Virus record (IMG/VR): IMGVR_UViG_3300048839_000639
Span: 1 to 56,793 of that record
Length of the DNA stretch: 56,793 nucleotides
Source of the DNA: a virus
Taxonomy: Duplodnaviria; Caudoviricetes
Strand: one strand, 5' to 3'
In this document: positions 2,913-56,435 of the stretch, one piece after another
Numbering within the stretch: the stretch's first letter is position 1
Layout: the number at the start of each line of letters is the position of its first letter
Notes under the pieces: model-generated
Told to the model about the DNA's origin: nothing
Databases searched by the model: none
The model's input: only the letters and a program-made list of their open reading frames with translations
Made by a program: the position numbers and the translations under genes

Positions 2913-3391
2913 CGGGCTACGTTTATTTCATCAGTGACGGGGTGGCAGTGAAGATTGGCATTGCCAGATTAGTAGGCGCTCGATTGCGTGACTTACAGAC
3001 TGGCAACACTAAACAACTGTCGGTTTTACACACCATAGAAACCAATGAGCCCCGCAAGGTTGAAGGCTGGCTGCACTGGAAGTATTCAGACCGTCGCATT
3101 GTGGGGGAGTGGTTTGCCTTGACTGCGAGCGACATTGATGATGTGAAAGCCATGAACCTGTCGCAGGGTTTGCCTGATAAAAAGATGGTGGCTGATGGAA
3201 TGGGCAAAGGCTTTACATTCGAGCAGGTGCTTTCATTCCTTGAGTCTGCCGTGTGGCACTGTCAACAGAATGGCATTGATGTGAAATTGATTAATAAGCC
3301 GGACGCCCTATGGCTAAAAGTTGATGGGGCAGAACTGACGGTAAATGGAATCCTTGAAGTTGAGCGGCCCGCCCGGCAGGTGACACCATGA
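2909..3391 (+). CDS. GIY-YIG (T5orf172/MUG113-like) nuclease-domain protein
   Basis: GYVYFI...VKIG...RLRDLQTGN...E..LH...GEWF motifs; lower GC than flanks. Confidence 0.85.
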   Translation: MTGYVYFISDGVAVKIGIARLVGARLRDLQTGNTKQLSVLHTIETNEPRKVEGWLHWKYSDRRIVGEWFALTASDIDDVKAMNLSQGLPDKKMVADGMGKGFTFEQVLSFLESAVWHCQQNGIDVKLINKPDALWLKVDGAELTVNGILEVERPARQVTP

Positions 3392-16061: not shown

Positions 16062-16949
16062 CTAGAAAGGCGGATCATTGAGCACCTCCAGGGTGAACAA
16101 GGCCGGCTGTAAAACGGGTTGCAAAACAGGTTGCGCCACGGGCGCCGGCGTTGCCACTGCATCAATGCCTGCGCGGGCGGCGTCCGGCGCCGGCGCGCCA
16201 CTGAATGGGAAGGGCTTGACCATCCACGGCGCAAACAGATAGCCATTGACCAGCGCGGCTTTCACGCACACATCAAGGATGTCCTGCCCGTAAAGGCAGT
16301 AGGAATGATTACTGGCGTGCAGCAGCATGCGCCCCGTGCCCATTGCCGGATCGCTCACCGTCTTCCAGCGCGCGTCTTTCTGTGCATCTTCGTCGCCAAA
16401 CGTCATGCGCGTCATCATCTCCGCAACTGAATGCGGCGTGGGATAAAAGCCGGCGCGCCGGCCAATGGCGCACTCGGCCATCAGGTCGCCGAGGATGTCG
16501 TAAGGGTGAAGCATCGGCCAGGCCAGGTTGAAGGTTTGATACAGCCGCATGGACGCGCCTTTGCGCGGCTCTCGCGGCAGTTCTGACTGCGAGCTGTGGC
16601 CGAAGCCATAGAGCAGCCAGCGCAGGAAATAGTCGAGATGTTCCCAGCTTGACCAGCCCAGCCAGCCGCCATCGGCCACGAGGTCGAGGCACTTCTCGAT
16701 GTGCCTGCGGGCCAGCGCAACGCCGGCCATGTCGTCGCCAAAGTCTATGCGCGGGATGGGGCCGGCATCCCCGTCGGCGCCGGCTTCCATCACCGCGCAC
16801 CAGTGCGCCCAGCGCCCGTATCCCATCTCATCCACGCCGATGAGATAGGGCAGAAGCCAGCCGGCCTTGAGATCGCGCTGAAGCGACTCGTCGATTGCAT
16901 GGGGCTTGAGGGCGCGCAGCCGCGCGCGCATGTCGTAGAGTGTGCTCAT
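16062..16949 (-). CDS. N6-DNA methylase (HsdM-like SAM-binding) domain protein
   Basis: DILGDL...GFYPTP..VA..M...DPAMGTGRML...YGQDI motifs. Confidence 0.8.
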   Translation of the reverse strand: MSTLYDMRARLRALKPHAIDESLQRDLKAGWLLPYLIGVDEMGYGRWAHWCAVMEAGADGDAGPIPRIDFGDDMAGVALARRHIEKCLDLVADGGWLGWSSWEHLDYFLRWLLYGFGHSSQSELPREPRKGASMRLYQTFNLAWPMLHPYDILGDLMAECAIGRRAGFYPTPHSVAEMMTRMTFGDEDAQKDARWKTVSDPAMGTGRMLLHASNHSYCLYGQDILDVCVKAALVNGYLFAPWMVKPFPFSGAPAPDAARAGIDAVATPAPVAQPVLQPVLQPALFTLEVLNDPPF

Positions 16950-16950
16950 G

Positions 16951-16987
16951 GCAAAAAAGAGGACAAAAAAGAGGGTAAAAAAGAGGC
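16951..16987. repeat. Three tandem approximately 12-bp repeats (AAAAAAGAGG core)
   Basis: Directly visible between the glutaminase stop and the methylase start. Confidence 0.7.
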
Positions 16988-16991
16988 TGGG

Positions 16992-17627
16992 CTATTTCAG
17001 CCCAGCCAGAAACCACTTGAACAGCGCCGCCCATTTCGGCTCACTGTTCCACAACATCTCAGGATGCCACTGCACCCCCAGCGCGCCCGGGCGGTGGATC
17101 GCCTCGATCACGCCGTCATCCGAGCGCGCCGCCACATCGAAACCTGCCGGCACCATTCGCGTGGACTGGTGGTGGTAGGAGTTCACCGTATAGGTGGGCA
17201 GGTGCTTGCGCAGGCTCATGCGCACGTCCTGCAAGCGGTGCACCGAGGGGTGATGGTCTGTCAGGCCGTCCTGATGGATGTCCTGATACAAGGATCCGCC
17301 GGCGGCCACGGTCAGCATCTGGTGGCCGCGGCAGATGCCAAACACCGGCTTGTCTTCGTTGAGCGCGCGCCGCGCCAGCATCCATTCAACGCGATCACGC
17401 TTCCATGAGGATTCACTGACTTGTGAATGCCGCTTCGCCTCGCCGTAAAAAAATGGGTGAATGTCCGCGCCGCCCAGCAGCATCAGGCCATCGAATGGGG
17501 TGGAGTAAGCCTCTTCCATCGTGGTGATGAGTTCGATGCGAATGTCGGGCTTGAGGGCGCGCAGGATGCTGTAAACGCTGCCGGTGGCCGTGCCTTCGTG
17601 GAGGGCCACAGTGTTAAGAGTTTTCAT
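16992..17627 (-). CDS. Peptidase C26 / class I glutamine amidotransferase (PuuD-like)
   Basis: GGADIHP..YG, GICRGHQ, NSYHHQ and GVQWHPE catalytic triad motifs. Confidence 0.92.
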   Translation of the reverse strand: MKTLNTVALHEGTATGSVYSILRALKPDIRIELITTMEEAYSTPFDGLMLLGGADIHPFFYGEAKRHSQVSESSWKRDRVEWMLARRALNEDKPVFGICRGHQMLTVAAGGSLYQDIHQDGLTDHHPSVHRLQDVRMSLRKHLPTYTVNSYHHQSTRMVPAGFDVAARSDDGVIEAIHRPGALGVQWHPEMLWNSEPKWAALFKWFLAGLK

Positions 17628-17639
17628 GGTCTGTCCTAT

Positions 17640-17667
17640 GAGATTGGAGATTGGAGATTGGAGATTG
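17640..17667. repeat. (GAGATTG)4 heptamer tandem repeat
   Basis: Directly visible. Confidence 0.9.
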
Positions 17668-17668
17668 C

Positions 17669-17705
17669 AAAAAAGAAGCCTCTCGGCTTGATAAACCGAG
17701 AGGCC
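17669..17705 (-). terminator. Intrinsic terminator after the amidoligase
   Basis: GCCTCTCGG/CCGAGAGGC stem plus T-tract on the minus strand. Confidence 0.65.
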
Positions 17706-17716
17706 AGCCGATGCCG

Positions 17717-18502
17717 TCAAGCTGCCGGCTGAATGGGTGACTGGGGAGCCGCTGCCGTGAGTTGTTGCAGCATGAATGCTGCCACTTCTGCCGGTGATTC
17801 ATCTTCGACAATGCAGAAGGCCGAGGCCAAAGAAACCTGAAAATGGTCATGGATGAACCGATCAACCGCCACATCCGCCGGCAACTGGGTTGATCGAGGG
17901 TTGATTTCCGTTTCGGTGATTCTGGCAACCAGTGCCGTAATCATGTAAATGGCTGACAGAACAAAATCGCAATCGATGACCGATGCAAAAAGCCGGCATT
18001 CGATTGTGTTTTTGCCGCTTCGGCCATAGTTGGTTGTGTTGAGAGAGTTGTATCGATCCCGCTGCCACATCGAAGCCGGCTTGCAAAAAAATGATTGCAG
18101 TCGGGTGGACATTTGGGAGCCGTTCAAACTCCAGAAAGCAAATTCGTATCGCTTGAATGCCTTCACAATTCGGGTGAATTGCTCGCTTGTGATGTTGCCG
18201 GCACCGATATGAACATGGATGCCGCAAGACCGATCAGAGATTGCATGCATGTCCTGCAATCGCAGCACAGCCTGGGCCGCCTGAATCAGACCATCCTCAC
18301 CCTTCAAAATCGGGCTGACAATCTCAACACCAAAATAGCCGGCAGGGGCATGAAGGGAGCCGTCATGCTGAGCATTCCAGCCAGCCGGCCATCCCTCAAT
18401 CTGGTCGCCGCGGTGGTATTGACCCACCGAGATCAGCTCTCGCACACTGTTGGGAAGGTAGCATTCGATTTCCAGACCGAAGGTAATTTCTGAGGCTTTC
18501 AT
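17717..18502 (-). CDS. Amidoligase (COOH-NH2 ligase type 2)
   Basis: TFGLEIE, DGSL, EIVSPIL, CGIHVH, RY.SLN and TIECR motifs. Confidence 0.9.
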   Translation of the reverse strand: MKASEITFGLEIECYLPNSVRELISVGQYHRGDQIEGWPAGWNAQHDGSLHAPAGYFGVEIVSPILKGEDGLIQAAQAVLRLQDMHAISDRSCGIHVHIGAGNITSEQFTRIVKAFKRYEFAFWSLNGSQMSTRLQSFFCKPASMWQRDRYNSLNTTNYGRSGKNTIECRLFASVIDCDFVLSAIYMITALVARITETEINPRSTQLPADVAVDRFIHDHFQVSLASAFCIVEDESPAEVAAFMLQQLTAAAPQSPIQPAA

Positions 18503-18532
18503 CGCATTTTCTCCGCAGTTAAGATTGACCTA

Positions 18533-18561
18533 TTTATATCACAGTGATACTAATTTGTCAA
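18533..18561 (-). promoter_or_regulatory. Leftward promoter of a divergent pair
   Basis: TTGACA-17-TATAAA. Confidence 0.75.
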
Positions 18562-18638
18562 TATAGAAAAGAAGGAAAAGGCAAATGAGTTTTTCGGATG
18601 TTCGAAAAGATGGTGTCGGGCAATTGCTCGTTTCCCTA

Positions 18639-18667
18639 TTGACAAATGAATATTGTCGTGATATAAA
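18639..18667 (+). promoter_or_regulatory. Rightward promoter of a divergent pair
   Basis: TTGACA-17-TATAAA with ATG 7 nt later. Confidence 0.75.
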
Positions 18668-18674
18668 TCTGTCC

Positions 18675-19121
18675 ATGATGGAAACCAAATCCAGACAGTC
18701 AAAGCAGCAGGTCGCACAGGCAACCCTTGCCATCCTCAACACCCTGCAAGATTTTGTGTCGCCGGCTCAGCGCAGGGTGGTCGCAAATTTGTCCGCCGGC
18801 GAGGAAGGCGAATGGTTCCTGCAAAAGATGCAGGAAATCCGCCAGACAGTTGACACAATGCCCAAGTCCTACGAAACGGATGGGCAGGGCGACAATGCCG
18901 TTGCCCATCTTCACTACTTCGGCCCTTCGTGTGATTTCTACATCACCGAAAAGGACATGTGCAAAAAGCAGCATCAGGCTTTCGGCTCTGCGTCGTATGG
19001 ACACGGCGCCGAGATGGGCTACATCTCGCTTTGTGACCTACTGAGGCATGGTGTCGAACTCGACTTTCACTTCACCCCTCGCTCGCTGAAAGACCTGAAG
19101 GCCTCAGGCGCCATTCGCTGA
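18675..19121 (+). CDS. DUF2958-like protein
   Basis: PKSYETDG...LHYF...FYITE...AFG...EMGYISL..L....ELDFHFTP. Confidence 0.7.
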   Translation: MMETKSRQSKQQVAQATLAILNTLQDFVSPAQRRVVANLSAGEEGEWFLQKMQEIRQTVDTMPKSYETDGQGDNAVAHLHYFGPSCDFYITEKDMCKKQHQAFGSASYGHGAEMGYISLCDLLRHGVELDFHFTPRSLKDLKASGAIR

Positions 19122-19122
19122 A

Positions 19123-19365
19123 ATGGATGACAAACTGATAACCCCCGTCCGGCTGGCCCAACTGAAAGCCGATGCCGAGAAGATCGCCAAAGAGCCGCTG
19201 ACCGTGGAGCAGGTTCGCGCAGCGATGTATTACTTTGGCAGTGAGCTGGCCTGCCTGCGGCTGTTTGCCAAGATCAACACCTTTGGCGCGGCGCATCACC
19301 CACATGCGCGGGTGGGCTACAGCGCCAATCGTTCAACCTGGTATTTTGTGACTGATATGACATGA
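19123..19365 (+). CDS. Hypothetical protein
   Basis: Tightly packed operon ORF. Confidence 0.65.
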   Translation: MDDKLITPVRLAQLKADAEKIAKEPLTVEQVRAAMYYFGSELACLRLFAKINTFGAAHHPHARVGYSANRSTWYFVTDMT

Positions 19366-20135
19366 CAACCCTTCAACTTCCCCTTATGCCCCCTGAGGCG
19401 TTCGGCGCATGGGATACAATCGAGCTAGTTAACATTCCATCCAGCGCCCAACTCCGAGAGCAGATCGCCAACGAAACCGACACGATCATGCTGTCATTTT
19501 CGTGCGGCAAAGACTCCATTGGCGCATGGCTTGCGCTTCGTCCGCATTTCAAGCGCATCATCCCCGTTTACATGTGGCTGGTGCCTGGCCTGCGTTTCGT
19601 CGAAGATTCGCTCCGCTACTACGAGGACTTCTTCGACACGCCGATCATGCGCGTGCCGCACCCCTCGTTTTATCGCTGGCTGAATCACTTCGTTTACCAG
19701 CCGCCGGAACGATGCGCGATCATTGAGCGCGTGGGCTTTCCCAACCCCGACTATGACCAGATGCTGGACATGGCCGCCGAGGACGCCGGGTTGAAGCGAC
19801 GCCCGTGGTCGGCCACCGGCGTGCGTGCTGCCGACAGCCCTGTGCGGCGCGCGGCGAGCACGCGCTATGGCGTCCGCAATGCCGGACGCAAAACGTTCTT
19901 CGCCATTTGGGACTGGACAAAAGACAAGCTCATCACCGAAATTGAACGCGCCGGCGTGAAGCTGCCCGTTGACTACAAGTGGTTTGGCCGATCCTTCGAC
20001 GGCATTGACCGCCGCTTTCTGGAGCCGCTGCGCAAACACGCGCCGGCAGATTACAAGACCATCCTCGACTGGTTTCCGCTGGCCGAGATTGACATGCTGA
20101 GGAAACGCCATGCCGAAGAAAATCAACCTCAATGA
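19362..20135 (+). CDS. PAPS-reductase-family PP-loop ATP pyrophosphatase
   Basis: LSFSCGKDS PP-loop; GVRAADS..R; I.DW motifs. Confidence 0.8.
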   Translation: MTTLQLPLMPPEAFGAWDTIELVNIPSSAQLREQIANETDTIMLSFSCGKDSIGAWLALRPHFKRIIPVYMWLVPGLRFVEDSLRYYEDFFDTPIMRVPHPSFYRWLNHFVYQPPERCAIIERVGFPNPDYDQMLDMAAEDAGLKRRPWSATGVRAADSPVRRAASTRYGVRNAGRKTFFAIWDWTKDKLITEIERAGVKLPVDYKWFGRSFDGIDRRFLEPLRKHAPADYKTILDWFPLAEIDMLRKRHAEENQPQ

Positions 20136-20553
20136 AGACTTGAACCTGGGCAATGACCTGGGTGAAGATTTCGATCTGGACATGGGTGAGGGCGCTTTCT
20201 CGCTTGACGACGATGAGATGCCCAGCCCTGTGGCCGGCGTGAACTACACCGGCCGCGTTCAAGACGACGCTGTGGCCGAGGCCGAGGCGGTGATGTCCGC
20301 CTTCCAGAAACGTGCTGCCGACGAGGCGCATCGATTCCGCGAGGCCACTGACTCGGAGTTCTGGTGCTGTTTTTGCTTCCAGACGCGCGAACAGAAGGAA
20401 GAGTTTCTGCGCGCGTTCAATCTGCTCAGCCTGGGTGACAAGTATCTGGACGGCCCCAAAGCCGCCCGTCGCATGGGCAAGCCCGTGCAGCCGGCCAACG
20501 TGCAATACCGCGATGGCCGGATTGATCCCAAGCTGGCAAAGCTCGCTCGCTAA
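20110..20553 (+). CDS. Acidic hypothetical partner protein
   Basis: Overlaps the PP-loop gene; DSEFWCCFCFQTREQKEEFL...KYLDG. Confidence 0.75.
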   Translation: MPKKINLNEDLNLGNDLGEDFDLDMGEGAFSLDDDEMPSPVAGVNYTGRVQDDAVAEAEAVMSAFQKRAADEAHRFREATDSEFWCCFCFQTREQKEEFLRAFNLLSLGDKYLDGPKAARRMGKPVQPANVQYRDGRIDPKLAKLAR

Positions 20554-20587
20554 TCACACGAAGGGAAAGAGGAGGTGATGTGCAGTT

Positions 20588-20710
20588 TTGAATCGCATTC
20601 GCAACGCCGCTCGCAACCTGGTGAACCGCGTGACTGGTCGCGGCAACCGCAATGCCCGCAGCGCCGGCGCCGCCCGCAGCGCCGGCGCCGCCCGCAGCTC
20701 TGGCACCTGA
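20588..20710 (+). CDS. 40-aa Arg/Asn/Ala-rich repeat peptide; not in ORF track
   Basis: GGAGGTGA SD 9 nt before TTG; MNRIRNAARNLVNRVTGRGNRNARSAGAARSAGAARSSGT; CGC/AAC/GCC codons. Confidence 0.65.
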   Translation: MNRIRNAARNLVNRVTGRGNRNARSAGAARSAGAARSSGT

Positions 20711-20749
20711 TCTGTTGTCAGCGCGTCTGGAAGACCCTGACTTTTCATC

Positions 20750-21310
20750 ATGAGCGAGCAGCCTGACCCCCCAACCCCTGACACGTCGGATAGCGGCGCG
20801 CCGGACAGCAAGCCGCCCCGACGAGGCCGGCCCACTGATTGCACGCCGGAGGCCACAAAATCCATCTCCGGCGCCATCTCGCTGGGCCTGACCTACAAGG
20901 ATGCGGCGCTGGCCGCGGACGTGTCATACAAGACGTTCATCAACTGGATGAAACGCGGACGCGACGAAGCCGCGCGCCTGCACGACGCCGGCCCGCGCGC
21001 CAAGCCCCGCGCCCGTGAACTGCCCTTTTTGGAATTCTTTTATGCTATAAAAAAGGCGAAGGCCAAAGGAAAGGCGCGGCTGGTCAAAACCATCTTCCAG
21101 CACTCCGAAACGAGCTGGCAGGCCGCGGCGTGGATTTTGGAACGCCGGCACCCGCGCCAGTTCGCGCTGCGCACACGTTCGGAAGTGACCGGCAAAGACG
21201 GCGGCCCCATCCAGCACGAGCACGCCACGGTAACGCTGGTGATGCCAGACAATGGACGCGGCGATGCCACGCAACCGACCACAACCCCGAACCCAAGCGC
21301 CGGCGACTGA
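20750..21310 (+). CDS. terS: Terminase small subunit
   Basis: GRPT..T, HTH, WQAAAWILERR.P..F and EVTGKDGGPI motifs; immediately before terL. Confidence 0.85.
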   Translation: MSEQPDPPTPDTSDSGAPDSKPPRRGRPTDCTPEATKSISGAISLGLTYKDAALAADVSYKTFINWMKRGRDEAARLHDAGPRAKPRARELPFLEFFYAIKKAKAKGKARLVKTIFQHSETSWQAAAWILERRHPRQFALRTRSEVTGKDGGPIQHEHATVTLVMPDNGRGDATQPTTTPNPSAGD

Positions 21311-22685
21311 AATCCGGCCCCAGCCGGCGCAGTGGACGTTTCACTCCACGCCGGCGGACATCGCAATCTTCGGCGGTGCTGCCGGCGGCGGCAAAAGCTG
21401 GTCGCTTCTGGCCGAGCCATTGCGCCACATCACCAACCCTGACTTTGGCGCGGTGATTTTTCGGCGCACGCATCCACAGATCGTGCTGGAAGGCGGTTTG
21501 CTCGACGAGTCGGCGCGTGTTTACGGTGCATTTGGCGGCCATCTCAACAAGTCGGCCCTGCGCTGGCTGTTTCCCAGCGGCGCCAGCATCACGCTGGACG
21601 CCATGCAATATGAGTCGAACGTCTACGACTGGCAGGGTTCGCAGGTGCCGCTGATCGAGTGGGACGAGTTGACGCATTTCACCGCCAAGCAGTTCTGGTA
21701 TATGCTGTCGCGCAACCGCTCGACGTGCGGTGTGCGCCCCTACATCCGTGCGAGCTGCAACCCTGACCCCGACTCATTTGTGGCTGACCTGATTGCGTGG
21801 TGGATCGACCAGGAAACCGGCTACCCCATCCCTGAGCGCGGCGGCGTTTTGCGCTACTTCTATCGCCTGGCCGATGAAATGCACTGGTATGGTTCGCCAG
21901 AAGAAGCCATGCACGCGCATCCAGACATGGCGAAGGACGCGCCGCCTAAATCGCTCACGTTCATCCCCAGCCGGCTGGAAGACAACGCCGTGCTGATGCA
22001 ACGCGACCCTGGCTACCTTGCCAACCTGAAATCGCTCCCGCTGGTGGACATGGAGCGCCTGCTGAAAGGCAACTGGAAGGTGCGTCCGGCTGCCGGCAAG
22101 GTGTTTAACCGGGGCTGGTTTGAGATCGTGGACGCCGCGCCTGCCGGCGGCACAGAGGTGCGCGGATGGGACTTTGCGGCCACTGAGCGCAAGATCAACA
22201 AGCCCGACCCCGACTTCACCGCCGGCGTGCTGGTGCGGCGGGTGGGCGATGTGTATTACGTGATGGACTGCGAGGATTTTCAGGAAGGCCCGACCGAGGT
22301 CGAAACGCGCTTCAAAAACATCTCGCAGCAGGATCACATGCGCGCTGCTGCCGGACGCTCGCAGTATCGCGTCCGCTTTGAAGTTGAGCCTGGCGGCGCC
22401 GCCCGACGCGACGCCATGCGCCTGATAGGGATGCTGGCCGGCATCGACGTGCGCGGCATTGACGCACGCGGCGACAAGGTGACGCGCGCGGCGCCGCTGG
22501 CTGCACAGGCCCGCGCCGGCAACGTCAAGATCGTGCGCGGCGCGTGGAATGAACGCTTCCTGAAGCACATGCACAGCTTCCCCGAAGGTGCGCACGATGA
22601 CATCGCCGATGCTGTGGCGTCTGCCTTCAACGAACTCACCGAGTGGTGGGTGCCGGAAGCGGAGTCTGGGCCTTCGGTGTGGTGA
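21264..22685 (+). CDS. terL: Terminase large subunit
   Basis: PQPAQ, GGAAGGGKS Walker A, WDELTHF Walker B, SCNP, WDFA and HDDIADA nuclease motif. Confidence 0.96.
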   Translation: MPRNRPQPRTQAPATEIRPQPAQWTFHSTPADIAIFGGAAGGGKSWSLLAEPLRHITNPDFGAVIFRRTHPQIVLEGGLLDESARVYGAFGGHLNKSALRWLFPSGASITLDAMQYESNVYDWQGSQVPLIEWDELTHFTAKQFWYMLSRNRSTCGVRPYIRASCNPDPDSFVADLIAWWIDQETGYPIPERGGVLRYFYRLADEMHWYGSPEEAMHAHPDMAKDAPPKSLTFIPSRLEDNAVLMQRDPGYLANLKSLPLVDMERLLKGNWKVRPAAGKVFNRGWFEIVDAAPAGGTEVRGWDFAATERKINKPDPDFTAGVLVRRVGDVYYVMDCEDFQEGPTEVETRFKNISQQDHMRAAAGRSQYRVRFEVEPGGAARRDAMRLIGMLAGIDVRGIDARGDKVTRAAPLAAQARAGNVKIVRGAWNERFLKHMHSFPEGAHDDIADAVASAFNELTEWWVPEAESGPSVW

Positions 22686-39194: not shown

Positions 39195-40673
39195 TTATCG
39201 CGCAGCCTGCACCAGCTCTTTGTAGGCGGCTTTCACGCGCCACTCGACGATGGCGCGCTCGTCAATGTCCACCACGACGCCGGCGAGAATGGTGAGAAGC
39301 GCGTTGTTGCGCTCTTTGGTGGACATCTCGGCCCACTGGCCGGCGAAGTCGATCAGGCTTTCGGCGGCCTGCGCAATGCTTGGGGCCGGCTGCGCCTCAA
39401 GATCGGCCATGTCGCGTTTGATGCGCGCCAGCTCGCGCAGGTAATCCGCCTCGGCCATGCCGCCGGCTTGAAACATGGTGCCCAGCCGCTTCATCTCGCC
39501 GCGCAGGTTGGCGGCCATCTGCGCGCGCTCGTCCTGCACGCTGACCGACTGCGACAGTTCGATTGCCTCGTCGATCACGTCCTCGGTGAGCTTGAGCGAG
39601 GCGATGAATTCATCCACCTGCGCCACCAGCACGCTTTCAGCCAGGTAGTGACGTTTGGCGGGGCAGGGGATGCCGCGTTCGTGGCTGCGGCAGATGTAAT
39701 AGGGTGACTCATGCCCCGATCCACCGGCCATGCCGCACGTCATGCGCTTGTCGCAGCCGGCGCACACGGCAAGGTCTTGCAGCAGGTATTGATGATGCGG
39801 CAGCGCAGCGCGGCCCGGTCGGGAACGGCCATGTGTGCGCATGGCGACCTGCAAGCGTTCGTGTTCGGCCCAGCTCATCAGCGGCTGGTGTGTGCCGTCA
39901 AAAAGCAGCGTCTCGTTCTTGCTGCGGCGTTTGGGCTTGCCGTCCGGCCCTTTGCCGGCCATGCCGCGATACACAATCTTGCCGGCGTAGAACGGATTGC
40001 GCAGCATCCCCAGCACGGTGTCCTTGCTGAAAGCGCGATTGTCGCGGGTGAGAATGCCGCGCGCCCTGAGTTCTTTGGCAATGTCGCCGGCTGAATACGT
40101 GCCGGTGAGCATCCTGTCCACCATCTCGCGCCAGATGGTGAATCGCGGTTCATCCGGCACATCCTCGCCGGCTTCGCGCTTGTAGCCGAACGGTGGGCGG
40201 GTGGCGTTCGACTTGCGCCGTGTGATCGCCTTCGACTTCTTGCGGCGCGCGATGTCCTCACTCAGGCGCTCGCGCTCGTGGGCGCCGATGACAATGCCGA
40301 GATTGCGCACCAGCCGGCCGCCGGCGCTGCGGTCGTGCTGCTGTGTGACGCTGATGACCGGCACACCGAGCCGGTCAAGCTCCTCAAGGATTGAAATGTC
40401 GGCGGCCGCGCGGCTGAATCGGTTGTAATCGTAGACGAGGATCGCCTGCCACCGCTGCCGCCCAGAACGGGCCATGAGCAGGAGGCGCTGAAACTGCTTG
40501 CGCTCGTGGGTGCCTCCGCTGATGGCCTCGTCCTTGAACGTCTCGATCACCGCCATGCCGTGCTCGGCGGCGTAGCGTGCAATGGTGTCGGCCTGTGAGG
40601 CGACGGTGTGGCCGTCGCGCTGCATCTCGCTTGAGTAGCGGATGTATTGCGCGGCGGGGATGAGGTCAGTCAT
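39195..40673 (-). CDS. int: Large serine recombinase (integrase)
   Basis: YIRYSS catalytic motif, SG...R, RFSR, PPFGY, NPFYAG, CAGC...C...C zinc ribbon and coiled coil. Confidence 0.95.
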   Translation of the reverse strand: MTDLIPAAQYIRYSSEMQRDGHTVASQADTIARYAAEHGMAVIETFKDEAISGGTHERKQFQRLLLMARSGRQRWQAILVYDYNRFSRAAADISILEELDRLGVPVISVTQQHDRSAGGRLVRNLGIVIGAHERERLSEDIARRKKSKAITRRKSNATRPPFGYKREAGEDVPDEPRFTIWREMVDRMLTGTYSAGDIAKELRARGILTRDNRAFSKDTVLGMLRNPFYAGKIVYRGMAGKGPDGKPKRRSKNETLLFDGTHQPLMSWAEHERLQVAMRTHGRSRPGRAALPHHQYLLQDLAVCAGCDKRMTCGMAGGSGHESPYYICRSHERGIPCPAKRHYLAESVLVAQVDEFIASLKLTEDVIDEAIELSQSVSVQDERAQMAANLRGEMKRLGTMFQAGGMAEADYLRELARIKRDMADLEAQPAPSIAQAAESLIDFAGQWAEMSTKERNNALLTILAGVVVDIDERAIVEWRVKAAYKELVQAAR

Positions 40674-41810: not shown

Positions 41811-42773
41811 TCAAGCCCCGTAGTCAATCGACTTCTCGGCGGCATTCTCCACGCGCTCGACTTCGTGCGCGTAGATCATGGTTGTGTCCACGCTGGCATG
41901 TCCCAACATGGCCTGCACGTTGCGGATGCTTTCGCCCCTGCGCAGCGCACTGGTGGCCGCGCTGTGCCGGATGCTGTGAGACGTTTTGTTGAGCGAGTAG
42001 ATGCCGGTCGCCTTGCGCGCTTCCAAGATCATCCGGCGCGCTGCCGACTGCGACCACCGGCCGCCCATGTTGCGCCGGCTGCCGCTGGTGAACAACGGCC
42101 CATCCGCCCCACCCCGTTCCTGCAACCAGTCCAGCAGGGCGTTCACCGCGTCGGGATGCGCGATCACGGCCACGTCATCAGCCTCGCGGTGACCCTTCAT
42201 CGTCTTGTAAAGCACGCGCTGGCCGCCTTCGGTGCCGATGTCGCCCAGGTCGGCGCGGTGCAGTTCGATGTCTCGCACGCCGCAGTAGGCGCGCAGCATC
42301 AGGTAACAGCGATCCCGCGCCGGCAGTCCCTTCGCGTAGTCCAGCAGCCGGCGCATCTCGGTATCGTCGAACGCCTGCCGCGAGTGGCGTTTATTGGCGC
42401 CGCGCCGTTTCGCGCCGTCCACGTCCTCGCCAGGATCGACAGGCGTGTAGCCGGCCTTGCGCGCCCACGCGGTGAAGGTCTTTGCGCCGGCCAGCCACAG
42501 GTTCACTGAGCCAGGTTTGTAGCCGTCGGTCAGCAGCGCGGCCTTCCAGCGGCGCATGGCGTCGGTCGTGATTTGCGCCTCGCCCACTGAGTGCAGGTAT
42601 TCCCGCAGCTTGCGCAGGCCGATGCGATACACGCGCGCGGTCGCGTCGCTCATCTCGTGGCCGGCGACTTTAAGCGCAAGGTCGGCATGCCACAGGTCAA
42701 TGAGCGCATCAGGCCCAGGCAATTGGATGATGTCCGAATGTCGGACGGTGGCTGTGACAAGTGCGGTGGTCAT
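41811..42773 (-). CDS. Tyrosine recombinase (XerC/D-like)
   Basis: CGVR..E, KG, HSIRH and LGHAS..TT.IY catalytic residues. Confidence 0.93.
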   Translation of the reverse strand: MTTALVTATVRHSDIIQLPGPDALIDLWHADLALKVAGHEMSDATARVYRIGLRKLREYLHSVGEAQITTDAMRRWKAALLTDGYKPGSVNLWLAGAKTFTAWARKAGYTPVDPGEDVDGAKRRGANKRHSRQAFDDTEMRRLLDYAKGLPARDRCYLMLRAYCGVRDIELHRADLGDIGTEGGQRVLYKTMKGHREADDVAVIAHPDAVNALLDWLQERGGADGPLFTSGSRRNMGGRWSQSAARRMILEARKATGIYSLNKTSHSIRHSAATSALRRGESIRNVQAMLGHASVDTTMIYAHEVERVENAAEKSIDYGA

Positions 42774-45772: not shown

Positions 45773-46777
45773 TCATTGCGCCGGAATCACCTCTTCATCC
45801 ATGCTGCCCACTACATCAAACGCAATCGGTAGCGTATCGGCTTCCAGAGTGCCGCCGGCTGCTGCATACACGTTGCGCACAGCCTGCCGGAAGTAGCTGG
45901 CCTTGAGCTCAATCCCCACCCCGCGCCGGCCTGCGCGCACTGCGCCGTAAACCTCTGAGCCAACACCCATGAACGGCGTAAGCACCGTTTCGCTTGGGTT
46001 GCTGCGTAGCGCAATCACGCGGTCGATCACGTCAAGCTGCAACGGGTGAACGTGCTTTTCGTCGTCCTTGTCGCGCGCGGCCTTGTAGGGCAACACACGG
46101 TCGATGCGAATGTCATCCCAGAACGAGGATGCATACTGCCGCCAAATCCAATGGCTGTAGCGGTTTTCAGTTTGCTTGCCTGCATAGCCTCGGAAGTGCA
46201 TCACTTCGCGCGGAATTTGGCGCTCGCCGGCATACTCCATCATGCCGACGGGATGCGCAACAGGGATCGGGTTGTCTCCGCTGCGCCGGAAGAGCAGCAG
46301 GTAATCCGCTGATGCCAGACCGCACTTCGTTGAATCGTTGACGAGCGTCATGTGCGCAAGGTTCTTTTGCATGGTGCGATTGCGCACGGCCAGCGGCTCT
46401 TTCCAAATGCAATGCCGGCCGCAGTAGGCCCACCCCTCTCGCTCGTGCAGCCGTATAACATCGCCGGGGAAATCGATGTAGCTGTCGCTGCCGCTGTTGG
46501 ATCGCGGGATGTCCATCACATGAACAGCAGTAATCCGGCCCGGCATTGTGATGCGGTGCAAGTCCCGCACGACAAAGGTGTAATGCCCAAAAAACTCGTC
46601 GTAGCCATCGCAGTTGCTCAAGTCGCGCTCGTCGCTTGAGTAGTTGTAGAGACCACCAAACGGGGGCGAATACACCGACAGGTGAATCGACTTGTCAGGG
46701 ATGTGCTGCATGACTTCCATGCAGTCGCCGTTGTAAAGCGCGTATTGATCGGTGATTACTTGATCGAGAACAGCCAT
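45773..46777 (-). CDS. N4/N6 DNA methyltransferase (beta class)
   Basis: GDC, SPPF, KH.HP and PFMGVGS...GIELK motifs. Confidence 0.9.
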   Translation of the reverse strand: MAVLDQVITDQYALYNGDCMEVMQHIPDKSIHLSVYSPPFGGLYNYSSDERDLSNCDGYDEFFGHYTFVVRDLHRITMPGRITAVHVMDIPRSNSGSDSYIDFPGDVIRLHEREGWAYCGRHCIWKEPLAVRNRTMQKNLAHMTLVNDSTKCGLASADYLLLFRRSGDNPIPVAHPVGMMEYAGERQIPREVMHFRGYAGKQTENRYSHWIWRQYASSFWDDIRIDRVLPYKAARDKDDEKHVHPLQLDVIDRVIALRSNPSETVLTPFMGVGSEVYGAVRAGRRGVGIELKASYFRQAVRNVYAAAGGTLEADTLPIAFDVVGSMDEEVIPAQ

Positions 46778-54392: not shown

Positions 54393-54652
54393 GCGCAATA
54401 TCACCGCGAAGCGTTGCCCCGCCCCACCCAAAAGGGGCTTTCACCGACCGCCAAAAGCAGGTGCTCGCGCTTGTGGCAACGGGCATGACCGACCGGATGG
54501 TGGCCGAGCAGCTTGGCATCACCGAGGGGACAGTGACGGCGCAGCTACGGGCCGTTTACGCGCGGCTTGAGTTGACGCGCAGCGCAAAGAATCCGCGCGT
54601 GCTGGTGACGCTCTACGCCATCCGCGCCGGCCTGGTGAGGGTGACGGCATGA
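54389..54652 (+). CDS. LuxR-type HTH regulator
   Basis: FTDRQKQVLALVATGMT...VAEQLGITEGTV......VY.RL. Confidence 0.88.
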   Translation: MSAISPRSVAPPHPKGAFTDRQKQVLALVATGMTDRMVAEQLGITEGTVTAQLRAVYARLELTRSAKNPRVLVTLYAIRAGLVRVTA

Positions 54653-55914
54653 GCACATTTGGATCGCTTTTTACTGGCTTCGGCGGCGCTGACATCGGCG
54701 CGGCGGCCGCCGGCTTCACCCCGCTGTGGGGCGTGGAGTATGACGCAGACATCGCCGGCGTTGCGAATGCCAACCTGGGCGGCCATGTGCGCGTGGCGGA
54801 TGTGCTGGACTGTAATCCGTGCGACTTCGCGCCGGTTGACCTGCTGCACGCATCACCGCCCTGCCCCAATTTCTCGGTGGCGAAAGCCGGCCGCGAAGAA
54901 ACGGCGCACGACATGGCGCTGGCAGACAAGGTGGCCGAGTTCATCCGCGTGCTGCATCCGCGCTTTGTCACCATTGAAAACGTGCCGCAGTATGTGAAGG
55001 CTCATAGCTACAAGCGCATCATGAAGGCGCTGGCGGATATGGGCTACATGTATGACGTGCAGGTGCTGAACAGCGCCGATTTCGGCGTGTCGCAGACGCG
55101 CAAACGCCTGATTGTGCGCGCCGTGATGGGCGCGTTTCCGCCTGCGCTGCCGCGCCCTGTGCCGTGGGTGGGCTGGTATGCGGCCATCGAGGACATTCTG
55201 CACACGCTGCCGGAATCGAGGTTTGCAGAGTGGCAGTTGAAGCGGTTGCCGGAATCACTGAAAAGCACATTCATGTCGGAAGAGGCGAACACCAGCGCCG
55301 CGCCCGTCATCAAAGGCGTTGATGCGCCGGCAATGACGATTCACGCTTCATACGTCAAAAAGATTGTGTTGCCAAAGGCCTTCATCGCCGGCGGTGCAAA
55401 CACCAGCGACGAACAGGCCGCGGCCGGCGTGGGCGTGGGCGATGCAGACGAGCCGGTGCGATGCGTGGCGACCAATGGCGCACGGTGGCGCGCCCTGCTG
55501 GTGGACGGTCAGCAAACCAATCCATCATCGGACGGCGTGCGTGTGCTGAACACGCGCAGGGATGCAGAGCCGGCCATCACGATCAACGCATCGCAATACA
55601 AGGGCGCGCATGTGGCGCTGCTGATTGAAAGCAAGAACTCAAATCAGGAGTGGGCTGTCGGGCTGCGCAACCACGACGCGCCGGCGCTGACGGTGGTCAC
55701 GGATGACCGCCCATCACACGCGCCCAAAGGCTGGCTCAGCACCGGCCGCGTGGTGCAGATGACGCCGCGCGCGCTGGCGCGCTTTCAGTCATTCCCTGAC
55801 TGGTATCAGTTGCCCGACAAGCGCAGTCTGGCATGTCGCGGCATTGGCAATGCCGTGCCGCCGCTGATGTATCAGCGCATCACAGAGGGGTTTCGGCAAG
55901 AGGTGACAGCATGA
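54649..55914 (+). CDS. DNA (cytosine-5) methyltransferase
   Basis: SLFTGFGG, SPPC, ENV, Q.R.R, R.Q.FPD and IGNAVPP motifs. Confidence 0.95.
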   Translation: MSTFGSLFTGFGGADIGAAAAGFTPLWGVEYDADIAGVANANLGGHVRVADVLDCNPCDFAPVDLLHASPPCPNFSVAKAGREETAHDMALADKVAEFIRVLHPRFVTIENVPQYVKAHSYKRIMKALADMGYMYDVQVLNSADFGVSQTRKRLIVRAVMGAFPPALPRPVPWVGWYAAIEDILHTLPESRFAEWQLKRLPESLKSTFMSEEANTSAAPVIKGVDAPAMTIHASYVKKIVLPKAFIAGGANTSDEQAAAGVGVGDADEPVRCVATNGARWRALLVDGQQTNPSSDGVRVLNTRRDAEPAITINASQYKGAHVALLIESKNSNQEWAVGLRNHDAPALTVVTDDRPSHAPKGWLSTGRVVQMTPRALARFQSFPDWYQLPDKRSLACRGIGNAVPPLMYQRITEGFRQEVTA

Positions 55915-56435
55915 GCAAGATTGACAGCAAGATCGACAGGGTGCACGCCATGCTAAACGGCGATGCGGTGGATTTCGGCTCCGTGCTTGACGCGATGAGC
56001 GGCACACGCTCGCGCAGGGTGTTTTCCCGCCCCATCGAGCCGGCCCAGCCGGTGAGGCCCATTGAGCCGGCAGACGTGCTCGCGCAGCCGGTGCAGGGGC
56101 AGACAAGGCAGGAGCGCACGGCGCAGGCCCACGCGCGCCGGCAGCGCATCATCGACTTCGTGGAATCGTATTTCGCATCGCATTACCGGCCGCCGACGAT
56201 CCGCGAGATTTGCGCCGGCGCCGGCATTGATTCGGCCAGCATGATCCTGTTTCACATGCGCGCCCTTTGCCAGAGTGGACAGATCGTTGACACCGGCGAC
56301 CACGGCGAAAGCCGGCGCTACGTGCCGGCGTGGTTGCCAGGAGTGATTAACCGTGAGATGGAAGCGCAGCGCGCAGCAAGACAGGCCGCAGGACAGGCAT
56401 CACGACAGCAGGACGCTGGTCATTCTGAGGGTTGA
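55911..56435 (+). CDS. Protein with LexA N-terminal-like winged HTH
   Basis: RQRIIDFV......PPTIREIC..AGI.S.S....H...L...G; no peptidase domain. Confidence 0.8.
   Translation: MSKIDSKIDRVHAMLNGDAVDFGSVLDAMSGTRSRRVFSRPIEPAQPVRPIEPADVLAQPVQGQTRQERTAQAHARRQRIIDFVESYFASHYRPPTIREICAGAGIDSASMILFHMRALCQSGQIVDTGDHGESRRYVPAWLPGVINREMEAQRAARQAAGQASRQQDAGHSEG

What the first reader, a model, noticed from the sequence alone, without database searches (positions are those of the whole stretch)
19362..20710. PP-loop enzyme + acidic partner + Arg-rich repeat micro-peptide triad abutting the terminase
Seen: a PAPS-reductase-like PP-loop ATPase overlaps an acidic 147-aa protein, followed by one of the strongest SDs in the region. 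That SD drives an unannotated 40-aa peptide with an amphipathic leader-like N-half and a (ARSAGA)n core ending SSGT. There are no sulfur-assimilation or Dnd genes. Established: PP-loop enzymes adenylate substrates, including peptide carboxylates and nucleobases. Inference: an undescribed RiPP-like or tagging system in which the peptide is activated or conjugated (to DNA or a protein), or a modified protamine-like packaging peptide.
Basis: partly seen in the sequence, partly recalled or inferred. Interest (0 to 1): 0.78.

Follow-up and report, generated by a model that had tools for sequence, protein, structure and literature searches.

The report
Phage enzyme, adaptor and tailed peptide
A tiny, very basic protein that gene finders miss is a real phage gene that travels with an ATP-using enzyme and a small adaptor protein at the head of the DNA-packaging genes of many unrelated phages, and nobody has measured what the trio does.

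Summary
The window, a 56.8-kb virus record, carries three adjacent genes followed by small and large terminase. They are a PAPS-reductase-like PP-loop enzyme (19362-20135), a translationally coupled partner (20110-20553) and a 40-aa Arg-rich ORF (20588-20710) behind a 10-nt Shine-Dalgarno site.

- **Partner:** it follows the enzyme in 88 of 89 viral loci and 76 of 80 prophage loci.
- **Peptide:** it evolves as a protein (238 synonymous against 80 non-synonymous codon changes). 57 of 63 genes have a ribosome site, against 319 of 2000 control ORFs. The tail R-[ST]-S-G-[ST] is conserved.
- **Paralogues:** ten genomes carry two dissimilar peptides that share one tail.
- **Controls:** a peptide profile hits 104 of 162 enzyme loci and 0 of 34 terminase-matched controls.
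- **Enzyme:** the PP-loop is intact and no cysteine is conserved, so it is not a real PAPS reductase.
- **Partner core:** it matches the extreme C-terminus of ParB-like proteins that pair with sister enzymes. This is therefore a ParB-less variant of an annotated but unstudied phage cassette.

My best guess is that the enzyme-adaptor pair ATP-activates the peptide tail. The chemistry is untested. This scan has noted the same kind of module before on other DNA.

The parts
19362..20135 (+). PAPS-reductase-like PP-loop ATP pyrophosphatase / adenylyltransferase, 257 aa
20110..20553 (+). Partner/adaptor, 147 aa: variable, here acidic, N-part plus a conserved core (about residues 60-125, motif ATDSEFW..CFQTREQKEEFL..GDKYLDG)
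   Evidence: Lies directly after the enzyme in 88 of 89 viral/phage loci and 76 of 80 prophage loci. The family has 1,627 representative clusters. No Pfam family and no fold match. The core aligns with the C-terminal end of ParB-like proteins of sister cassettes.
20570..20579 (+). Extended Shine-Dalgarno site AGGAGGTGAT, 8 nt before the TTG start
   Evidence: Read from the sequence. A core SD precedes 57 of 63 unique peptide genes, against 319 of 2000 control small ORFs.
20588..20710 (+). Tailed basic micro-protein, 40 aa, net charge +9: N-terminal Arg-rich helix-like segment, Gly/Ala/Arg middle, C-terminal tail A-R-S-S-G-T
   Evidence: Homologues lie at the same place. Codon changes are 238 synonymous against 80 non-synonymous. 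Profile hits are confined to enzyme loci.
20654..20698 (+). 18-bp in-frame tandem repeat, 2.5 copies at 100% identity, encoding ARSAGA; a lineage-specific expansion inside the peptide gene
   Evidence: Tandem Repeats Finder. Absent from the aligned relatives.
20750..21310 (+). Small terminase subunit, the next gene in the operon
   Evidence: PHROG 4102 at 7.2e-31.
21252..22685 (+). Large terminase subunit
   Evidence: Pfam Terminase_6N at 8.9e-23 and Terminase_6C at 2.2e-11; PHROG 979 at 3.4e-145.

Best explanation
This is a three-part phage module made at the start of the DNA-packaging operon.

1. The enzyme is a PAPS-reductase-fold PP-loop protein that binds ATP and transfers AMP. It is not a sulfate reducer.
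2. The partner is an adaptor. Its conserved core is the same small domain that ends the ParB-like proteins of sister cassettes. It most likely holds on to the enzyme. Here the ParB DNA-clamp part is missing.
3. One or two tiny proteins, highly basic here as in most relatives, carry a conserved small-residue C-terminal tail, R-[ST]-S-G-[ST].

My best reading is that the enzyme-adaptor pair recognises this tail. It then uses ATP to activate it, most simply by adenylylating the terminal carboxylate as most PP-loop enzymes do with carboxyl or carbonyl oxygens. The tail could then be capped (for example amidated) or ligated to a target. The basic body of the peptide binds nucleic acid during packaging.

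Shown: the gene set, its conservation, the coding status of the peptide, the fold and motifs of the enzyme, and the domain link to ParB-type cassettes. Inferred: enzyme-adaptor binding, tail recognition, the chemistry, and the link to DNA.
For: - **Synteny.** The partner follows the enzyme in 88 of 89 loci (three of the 89 are duplicate fetches) and in 76 of 80 prophage loci. Its start usually abuts or overlaps the enzyme stop.
- **Peptide is real.**
  - Third-position differences number 266, against 65 and 46 at positions 1 and 2, in 44 non-independent pairs.
  - A core SD precedes 57 of 63 genes, against 319 of 2000 controls.
- **Peptide depends on the enzyme pair, not on the terminase type.**
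  - The iterated profile hits 62 of 82 viral and 42 of 80 prophage enzyme loci. It hits 0 of 33 loci chosen by TerL homology and 0 of 1 Rhizobium phage with a related TerL.
  - The one TerL-chosen locus that has the enzyme (L187) also has a partner and a family-like peptide.
  - The genes downstream of the module fall into at least five unrelated clusters of 56, 13, 12, 12 and 12.
- **The tail is the recognised part.** Ten genomes carry two tandem peptide genes with dissimilar bodies but the same last 5-6 residues. Rare variants such as RASNT and R[LI]SGS are shared within a genome.
- **Enzyme.** The PP-loop is intact, the model is confident, and the nearest folds are adenylyl-transferring or PAPS-binding enzymes. 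TtuA with its tailed partner TtuB (5gha) is among the Foldseek matches.
- **Shared parts with the ParB-type cassette.**
  - The enzyme is homologous over 212 columns to Riemerella phage RAP44 gp33 (probability 98.7%).
  - The partner core aligns with the last 40-46 residues of the ParB-like proteins of RAP44 and Bacteroides phage BS-TP2 (probabilities 32%, 85% and 73%).
Against: - No measurement exists of any chemistry, binding or translation.
- In three divergent layouts the peptide heads the TerS-TerL operon on the strand opposite to the enzyme and partner. These are Cutibacterium phage CA1NRNZ, L015 and the Gemmataceae prophage L105.
- In L018, L020 and L097 the peptide lies about 1.5-2.7 kb upstream of the enzyme. 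The peptide is therefore tied to packaging at least as tightly as to the enzyme.
- Sister cassettes carry a ParB domain. A recent paper shows phage ParB homologues activating a DNA base-modifying enzyme (PMC13229309, abstract and passages). This favours DNA as the substrate.
- 58 of 162 enzyme loci have no profile hit at E <= 0.01. Many of them show divergent Lys-rich or extended-tail peptides by eye. Some show none that I could recognise, such as L144, L149 and L126.
- The enzyme has many invariant Arg and Lys residues and a net charge near 0. That is not what one expects of a surface built to hold a +9 peptide.
- A Ser/Thr end is not a known substrate tail of any PP-loop enzyme, as far as I recall.
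Confidence: 0.38

Rival explanations
1. DNA (or nucleotide) modification system. The PP-loop enzyme adenylates a position on phage DNA before or during packaging, as TilS, DndC or YcfA-type enzymes do on bases or the backbone. The partner activates or positions it. The basic peptide is a DNA-binding cofactor that stands in for the missing ParB domain, and its tail docks it to the enzyme or the terminase.
For: - The enzyme is a full-length homologue of the enzyme of ParB-type cassettes, and the partner core equals the C-terminal domain of their ParB-like proteins.
- Phage ParB homologues activate a DNA T-dioxygenase (PMC13229309, abstract and passages).
- The module sits at the packaging genes or genome ends.
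- The phage invests in DNA modification, with three methyltransferase-like genes.
- An amidoligase-GATase-methylase-like block lies back to back with the trio, and the amidoligase-GATase pair does so in 3 relatives as well.
- The enzyme has many invariant Arg and Lys residues.
Against: - This variant has no DNA-binding domain in the enzyme or partner, and the record has no ParB_N.
- It does not explain why dissimilar paralogous peptides keep the same tail.
- It does not explain why some second paralogues are not very basic.
- There is no conserved Cys for sulfur chemistry.
- No modified base is known for any carrier.
Confidence: 0.3
2. The peptide is an independent packaging helper or packaged counter-ion: a protamine- or histone-H1-like DNA condenser, or a TerS accessory. 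The enzyme-partner pair does something else, and the three only share a mobile 'head of late operon' slot.
For: - Composition: net charge +4 to +10 in 23 peptides, with Lys-rich AKK-type versions in low-GC phages.
- The peptide stays with TerS in three divergent layouts.
Against: - The peptide is absent from 32 of 32 TerL-matched loci that lack the enzyme, and from the Rhizobium phage.
- It keeps its place although the downstream gene family changes.
- The conserved tail, and the sharing of tails between paralogues, are not expected of a plain counter-ion.
Confidence: 0.12
3. Host-directed or anti-defence function. The enzyme-partner pair modifies a host RNA, protein or signalling nucleotide. 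The Arg-rich peptide is an RNA-binding (ARM-like) or defence-blocking factor expressed late.
For: - The nearest folds include tRNA-modifying PP-loop enzymes: TilS, TtuA, NcsA and MnmA.
- Arg-rich helices bind RNA (recalled).
- The module spreads across at least seven phyla of hosts, which suits a conserved target.
Against: The fixed position at the packaging genes has no obvious reason under this reading. No defence-related family matched. No padloc search was made.
Confidence: 0.1
4. The small ORF is a chance frame or a DNA-level repeat (for example a terminase binding site) and is not translated.
For: - The window copy starts with TTG and holds an exact 18-bp tandem repeat just upstream of terS.
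- No RNA or proteomic data are available.
Against: - Synonymous changes dominate.
- SD sites are enriched.
- The amino-acid tail is conserved across hosts of 37-67% GC with different codons.
- The repeat is absent in relatives.
- The region has no RNA structure signal (z -0.27) and no Rfam match.
Confidence: 0.02

Closest known systems
Phage 'PAPS reductase family protein' plus 'ParB-like nuclease' cassettes before the terminase (Riemerella phage RAP44 gp33/gp32; Bacteroides phage BS-TP2 gp52-gp55). Annotated only, no measured function.
   Same: - The enzyme is homologous over its full length (hhalign 98.7%, 212 columns).
- The partner core matches the extreme C-terminus of the ParB-like proteins.
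- Both sit directly before TerS and TerL, and both have a tiny basic ORF in the cassette.
   Different: - Here there is no ParB N-domain in the record, and no ASCH gene was seen beside the module in the window.
- The peptide follows the partner instead of preceding the enzyme.
- The tail is R-[ST]-S-G-[ST] rather than Gly-rich or other.
TtuA-TtuB (and Ncs6/NcsA with Urm1/SAMP) tRNA thiolation pairs
   Same: A PP-loop enzyme works with a small protein whose conserved small-residue C-terminal tail reaches the ATP site. TtuA-TtuB (5gha) and NcsA are among the Foldseek matches of the enzyme model.
   Different: - There is no conserved Cys or Fe-S site.
- The peptide is a 24-72 aa basic chain, not a beta-grasp protein.
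- The tail ends in Ser/Thr, not Gly-Gly.
- No E1-like activator is present.
- The context is phage packaging. The TtuB details are recalled.
PAPS/APS reductases (CysH), ATP sulfurylase CysD and the PAPS-reductase-like domain of FAD synthase
   Different: - The window protein has no Pfam PF01507 hit. Only weak hits appear in 14 of 29 relatives, best 9e-4.
- No PDB sequence hit at E <= 1.
- No conserved catalytic Cys.
- No cysteine desulfurase (PF00266) in the record, and no sulfur-assimilation family among the 29 window proteins scanned against Pfam.
Phage lambda NinC (annotated PAPS reductase family, non-essential)
   Same: It is a phage PP-loop protein of unknown function (PMC10695390, one table passage).
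   Different: Only the PP-loop aligns (hhalign probability 1.2%, 26 columns). It lies in the nin region, not at the terminase, and has no partner or peptide.
RiPP pathways with a recognition element and an ATP-dependent tailoring enzyme (for example lasso-peptide cyclases of the AsnB type); carrier-peptide systems such as LysW. Recalled.
   Same: The logic is the same: a small genetically encoded peptide with a recognition part and a reactive end, an adaptor, and an ATP-activating enzyme.
   Different: No PqqD-like fold was found for the partner (inconclusive). There is no protease or exporter. The product is a phage late protein, not a secreted natural product.
ParB-dependent phage thymine dioxygenases (PMC13229309)
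   Same: A phage DNA-modifying enzyme needs a cognate ParB-family partner. This is a precedent for partner-activated enzymes in phage DNA modification.
   Different: The enzyme class is different (Fe/2OG dioxygenase). No tailed peptide is involved, and here the ParB domain itself is absent.

Membership tests
PP-loop ATP pyrophosphatase superfamily (adenine nucleotide alpha hydrolases) | SGGxDS-type PP-loop after the first strand | tested here: met
   S47, G49, K50 and D51 are invariant in 29 sequences, and S52 in the 6-sequence alignment.
PP-loop ATP pyrophosphatase superfamily (adenine nucleotide alpha hydrolases) | Rossmann-like alpha/beta fold shared with GMP synthetase, TilS and CysH | tested here: met
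Bona fide PAPS reductase (CysH) | Pfam PF01507 above the gathering score | tested here: not met
   The window protein has no PF01507 hit at E <= 1. 14 of 29 relatives hit weakly, best 9.3e-4.
Bona fide PAPS reductase (CysH) | Conserved C-terminal catalytic cysteine (ECGLH-type motif, recalled) | tested here: not met
   No Cys column exceeds 52%, and that one lies inside the PP-loop. No Cys is among the invariant columns.
Fe-S PP-loop thiolases / DndC | Three conserved cysteines for a 4Fe-4S cluster, plus a cysteine desulfurase partner | tested here: not met
   No conserved Cys. PF00266 is absent from the record, although the record is only 64% complete.
Phage PP-loop + ParB-like cassette (RAP44 / BS-TP2 type) | Enzyme of the same family | tested here: met
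   hhalign of A3 against RAP44 gp33 gives probability 98.7%, E 2e-16, 212 columns.
Phage PP-loop + ParB-like cassette (RAP44 / BS-TP2 type) | Partner with a ParB N-terminal (PF02195) domain | tested here: not met
   The partner has no Pfam family. PF02195 is absent from the record.
Phage PP-loop + ParB-like cassette (RAP44 / BS-TP2 type) | C-terminal domain of the ParB-like protein | tested here: met
   The partner core aligns with RAP44 gp32 residues 202-241 (32%), with the gp32 family profile (85%, E 6e-6) and with BS-TP2 gp55 residues 215-260 (73%). The support is moderate.
RiPP-like peptide modification system | Precursor peptide with a conserved reactive end, next to its enzyme | tested here: met
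   The tail is conserved and the placement is fixed.
RiPP-like peptide modification system | Recognition element (PqqD-like) and a demonstrated modification | tested here: inconclusive
   Partner fold searches gave no match. The modification cannot be tested with these tools.
Protamine-like / virion DNA-condensing peptide | Very basic, low-complexity small protein | tested here: met
   Net charge is +9 in 40 aa, with a family median of +9.
Protamine-like / virion DNA-condensing peptide | Present in virions bound to DNA | not testable with these tools
   No proteomic data were seen.

The most novel reading that the evidence does not exclude
Phages encode a peptide-tagging pathway unrelated to E1/ubiquitin-like enzymes. 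A PAPS-reductase-fold PP-loop enzyme, held by a small adaptor, ATP-activates the C-terminal R-S-S-G-S/T tail of small basic proteins. It then ligates them covalently to the packaged DNA or to a packaging or virion protein, or caps the tail. The genome would then enter the capsid decorated or escorted by enzyme-processed peptides.
Probability: 0.17. Interest if true: 0.9.

Novelty: new variant of a known kind. Interest (0 to 1): 0.74.

Why it matters
The partner family alone has 1,627 representative clusters at 50% identity. The module occurs in cultured phages of Gordonia, Cutibacterium, Bifidobacterium and Pasteurella. It also occurs in prophages of at least seven phyla (the phylum names are my reading of the record titles). 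It is routinely annotated as a sulfur-metabolism 'auxiliary metabolic gene'. That label is wrong for this family, because the enzyme lacks the catalytic cysteine.

If the enzyme works on the peptide tail, this would be a new way of activating a protein C-terminus. If it works on DNA, it would be a new phage DNA modification tied to packaging. Either answer is directly testable in cultured phages. The micro-ORF also shows how much conserved coding sequence gene finders miss: it is annotated in only some records (CA1NRNZ, BS-TP2).

Tried and rejected
- **Complex prediction** of enzyme, partner and peptide: no verdict (score 0.00, mark 0.32, controls not run). This is no evidence either way.
- **Sequencing runs**: none was listed, so there are no expression data.
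- **tblastn of the 40-aa peptide** against 50,697 phage records at E <= 10: no match. This is expected, because the low-complexity filter is on.
- **Profile of 23 peptides** against 5.8 billion proteins: only 2 hits at E <= 0.01. Such short peptides cannot reach significance there, so I could not ask database-wide whether the peptide occurs without the enzyme. I used TerL-matched control loci instead.
- **PDB sequence search** with the enzyme profile: 0 hits at E <= 1.
- **Partner-peptide fusions:** none among the 150 best partner representatives.
- **RNA element reading:** fold z-score -0.27 and no Rfam match.
- **Promoter and terminator scan** of 18300-21500: no terminator-like site, and one promoter-like site on the minus strand, no more than in shuffles.
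- **Strict tail rule** (composition plus last six residues): not specific in high-GC DNA. It flagged 80 ORFs elsewhere in 80 prophage loci. I rely on the profile counts instead.
- **Upstream genes:** there is no universal fourth gene; the clusters number 22, 21, 11 and smaller.
- **Amidoligase and GATase:** they lie next to the trio only in the window, L009 (also fetched as L059), L010 and L040. They are therefore not part of the core.
- **Literature:** seven full-text searches found no paper describing this trio or its peptide. The IbrA/IbrB search was swamped by 'iBRB' retina papers, so what I say about IbrA/IbrB is recalled only. Supplementary files were not opened and may hold gene lists that bear on this.
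Full report
**What is in the window**

The window is a single virus record of 56,793 bases, classed as linear and estimated 64% complete. Five genes run on the plus strand without any terminator-like site between 18300 and 21500.

- A 257-aa protein lies at 19362-20135.
- A 147-aa protein lies at 20110-20553 and overlaps the first by 26 nt.
- A 40-aa ORF lies at 20588-20710. It starts with TTG, 8 nt after AGGAGGTGAT at 20570-20579.
- The small terminase follows at 20750-21310 (PHROG 4102, 7e-31).
- The large terminase follows at 21252-22685 (Terminase_6N and 6C).
- The portal gene follows from 22740.

The peptide gene holds an exact 18-bp repeat in 2.5 copies at 20654-20698.

**The enzyme**

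- Pfam gives nothing for the window protein at E <= 0.01. PHROGs places it in 'PAPS reductase' families (2302 at 2.5e-26; 424 at 7.7e-14).
- In an alignment of 29 relatives, F46, S47, G49, K50 and D51 are invariant. Several Arg and Asp positions are invariant too: R155, D158, S159, R162, D184, K187, Y205, G209, F212-D213-G214, D216 and R218. S52 is invariant in the 6-sequence alignment.
- No cysteine column exceeds 52%, and that one lies inside the PP-loop.
- The AF2 model is confident (pLDDT 92.6).
- Foldseek finds PP-loop enzymes: GMP synthetase, TilS, TtuA, NcsA, MnmA and CysH, with 88 matches at E <= 0.001.
- A profile search of PDB sequences finds nothing at E <= 1. Only 14 of 29 members touch PF01507, and weakly.

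The protein is thus a divergent branch of the PAPS-reductase-like PP-loop clade. It keeps the ATP site and lacks what a reductase or an Fe-S thiolase needs.

**The partner**

- tblastn finds a partner homologue directly after the enzyme in 88 of 89 loci from phage records and IMG/VR. Three of those loci are duplicate fetches, and L071 is the one miss.
- It finds one in 76 of 80 prophage loci. The partner start usually abuts or overlaps the enzyme stop.
- The conserved part is a helix followed by the motif ATDSEYW..CFQ[ST]REQKE.FL....GDKY[LI]DG...A..LG. The N-terminal part varies in length and charge: it is net negative in 19 of 27 members and positive in 5. Some members carry the core twice.
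- An exhaustive profile search finds 1,627 representative clusters at E <= 0.001 and 1,073 at <= 1e-10. The best 150 are all 88-265 aa, so they are stand-alone.
- Pfam, NCBIfam and the protein atlas give no name. The model (pLDDT 80.8) has no fold match.

**The peptide is a gene**

The closest relative, L009 (enzyme 59% identical), has at the same place a 43-aa ORF with the same kind of N-terminal Arg-rich segment. It ends in R-S-S-G-T. Pasteurella phage Pm86, a 39% GC locus, has two such ORFs in tandem, both ending in R-S-S-G-S.

- **Motif count.** Across 87 sources and 10,380 small ORFs, a C-terminal motif rule gave 88 hits. Of these, 75 lay at the expected place.
- **First profile.** A profile built from 23 peptides was searched against 18,185 small ORFs. 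At E <= 0.01 it hit the window (only the micro-ORF in 56.8 kb), 61 of 82 viral enzyme loci and 30 of 80 prophage loci. None of the prophage loci was used to build it. It hit 0 of 34 control loci.
- **Placement.** Of the 93 hits, 89 lie on the same strand within 900 nt after the partner stop. Two more are artefacts of tblastn reading through the partner stop. One lies in the locus without a partner hit, and one lies on the opposite strand.
- **Iterated profile.** An iterated profile on 38,895 stop-anchored fragments raised the counts to 62 of 82 and 42 of 80. The controls stayed at 0 of 34.
- **Misses.** Many of the 58 loci missed at E <= 0.01 show divergent peptides by eye. These are Lys-rich AKK-type versions in low-GC phages, and actinobacterial versions with a few residues after the Ser-rich stretch. 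A few show none that I could recognise.
- **Codon changes.** Comparison of 44 equal-length, non-independent pairs gave 266 third-position differences, against 65 and 46 at positions 1 and 2. That is 238 synonymous against 80 non-synonymous codon changes. One pair at 34% nucleotide divergence shows 22 against 6.
- **Ribosome sites.** A core SD lies 4-18 nt before an in-frame start in 57 of 63 unique genes, against 319 of 2000 control small ORFs from the same loci.
- **RNA alternatives.** The RNA of the region folds no better than shuffles (z -0.27), and no Rfam family matches.

**What the peptide goes with**

- I fetched 33 viral loci by homology to the window's TerL (30-60% identity). 32 of them lack the enzyme and partner, and none of those has a family-like peptide.
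- The one that has the enzyme (L187) also has a diverged partner and a 40-aa peptide with the family's N-terminal segment.
- A Rhizobium phage with a related TerL but no enzyme has no such ORF.
- The first large gene after the module falls into at least five unrelated clusters of 56, 13, 12, 12 and 12, out of 159 loci.

The peptide therefore follows the enzyme pair, not a terminase family.

There is evidence the other way too. In three layouts the enzyme and partner face away from the packaging genes. These are Cutibacterium phage CA1NRNZ, L015 and the Gemmataceae prophage L105. In all three the peptide stays immediately upstream of TerS on the other strand. In a Burkholderiaceae-type group (L018, L020, L097) it lies about 1.5-2.7 kb upstream of the enzyme. 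Its expression is thus tied to the packaging operon.

**The tail**

The most widespread ending is R-[ST]-S-G-[ST] followed by the stop. It occurs in prophages whose record titles name Actinomycetota, Pseudomonadota, Verrucomicrobiota, Planctomycetota, Myxococcota and Acidobacteriota, with related endings in a Prevotellaceae and a Clostridia record. The assignment to phyla is my reading of the titles.

Ten genomes carry two adjacent peptide genes: L003, L011, the L022 group, L027, L043, L045, L057, L134, L137 and L143. Their bodies differ in length, sequence and even charge, but their last 5-6 residues agree. This includes rare endings such as RASNT and R[LI]SGS. That pattern is what one expects if a genome-encoded reader recognises the tail. 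The only proteins that are constant across all these phages are the enzyme (45-63% identical to the window's) and the partner.

**Link to a known cassette**

Notes from earlier runs of this scan pointed to phage cassettes of a PP-loop enzyme, a ParB-like protein and a small tailed peptide. One note (e1-6218820) described an enzyme-adaptor-peptide trio like this one on other DNA. I tested the link myself.

- The enzyme profile aligns over 212 columns with Riemerella phage RAP44 gp33 (probability 98.7%). With lambda NinC it aligns only at the PP-loop (1.2%).
- The partner profile aligns with the last 40 residues of RAP44 gp32 (32%).
- It aligns with a 17-sequence profile of that ParB-like family (85%, E 6e-6, 43 columns).
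- It aligns independently with the last 46 residues of Bacteroides phage BS-TP2 gp55 (73%).
- Both of those cassettes also hold a tiny basic ORF, placed before the enzyme.
- The window record has no ParB_N domain at all.

The trio is therefore a ParB-less variant. The partner keeps the C-terminal domain shared by all versions, which is the natural candidate for the part that touches the enzyme.

**Mechanism**

The chemistry typical of the fold is transfer of AMP from ATP to an oxygen of the substrate. The conserved small-residue tail, its sharing among paralogues, and the precedent of TtuB's tail entering TtuA's PP-loop site make tail activation my leading reading (0.38).

The DNA-modification reading stands close behind (0.30), on three grounds.
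- The sister cassettes carry a ParB domain.
- Phage ParB homologues were shown to switch on a DNA thymine dioxygenase (PMC13229309, abstract and passages).
- The module sits at the packaging genes of a phage that also carries three methyltransferase-like genes.

A plain counter-ion role for the peptide (0.12), a host-directed role (0.10) and a non-coding artefact (0.02) follow. No step of the chemistry has been measured.

**Novelty**

Seven full-text searches found no description of this trio. The cassette with ParB is annotated in databases but unstudied. I therefore file this as a new variant of a known (annotated) kind. This scan has met the same kind before on other genomes.

Noticed in passing
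window 16065-18502 (minus strand): Back to back with the trio lie three genes. They are an Amidoligase_2 gene (17717-18502), a class-I GATase / peptidase C26 gene (16992-17720) and a 295-aa ORF with a weak N6_Mtase match (16065-16949, 3.7e-5). The amidoligase-GATase pair also lies next to the enzyme in L009, L010 and L040, but in no other of the loci searched (L001-L090). It may be a DNA- or peptide-amidating side module.
   Followed up: partly
window 45776-46777 (-) and 54649-55911 (+): Two further DNA methyltransferase genes are present: N6_N4_Mtase at 5e-13 and C-5 cytosine methylase at 1.4e-40. The phage invests heavily in DNA modification.
   Followed up: no
window 18585-19121 (+); L018 967-1587; L020; L061: The 178-aa gene just upstream of the trio (PHROG 5203, unknown function) recurs in three other loci. 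In L018 and L020 it lies directly after the displaced tailed peptide.
   Followed up: partly
L031 4189-4668: The partner and the tailed peptide lie in the same reading frame, separated by a single stop codon, so read-through would fuse them. No true fusion was seen among the 150 best partner representatives.
   Followed up: partly
L090 3629-4363 (RAP44 gp32); L206 3147-3941 (BS-TP2 gp55): Proteins annotated 'ParB-like nuclease' or 'DNA methylase' end in a domain of about 45 aa that matches the partner core. The 'DNA methylase' names given by sources to this family look unfounded.
   Followed up: partly
window 39198-40673 (-) and 41814-42773 (-); 55833-56432 (+): A serine recombinase, a tyrosine integrase and a LexA-like DNA-binding protein point to a temperate phage.
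   Followed up: no
L051 about 3000-3200: The basic ORF after the partner ends without the usual tail, while a ...SMSGS end lies in another frame. This may be a frameshift or a sequencing error in the peptide gene.
   Followed up: no
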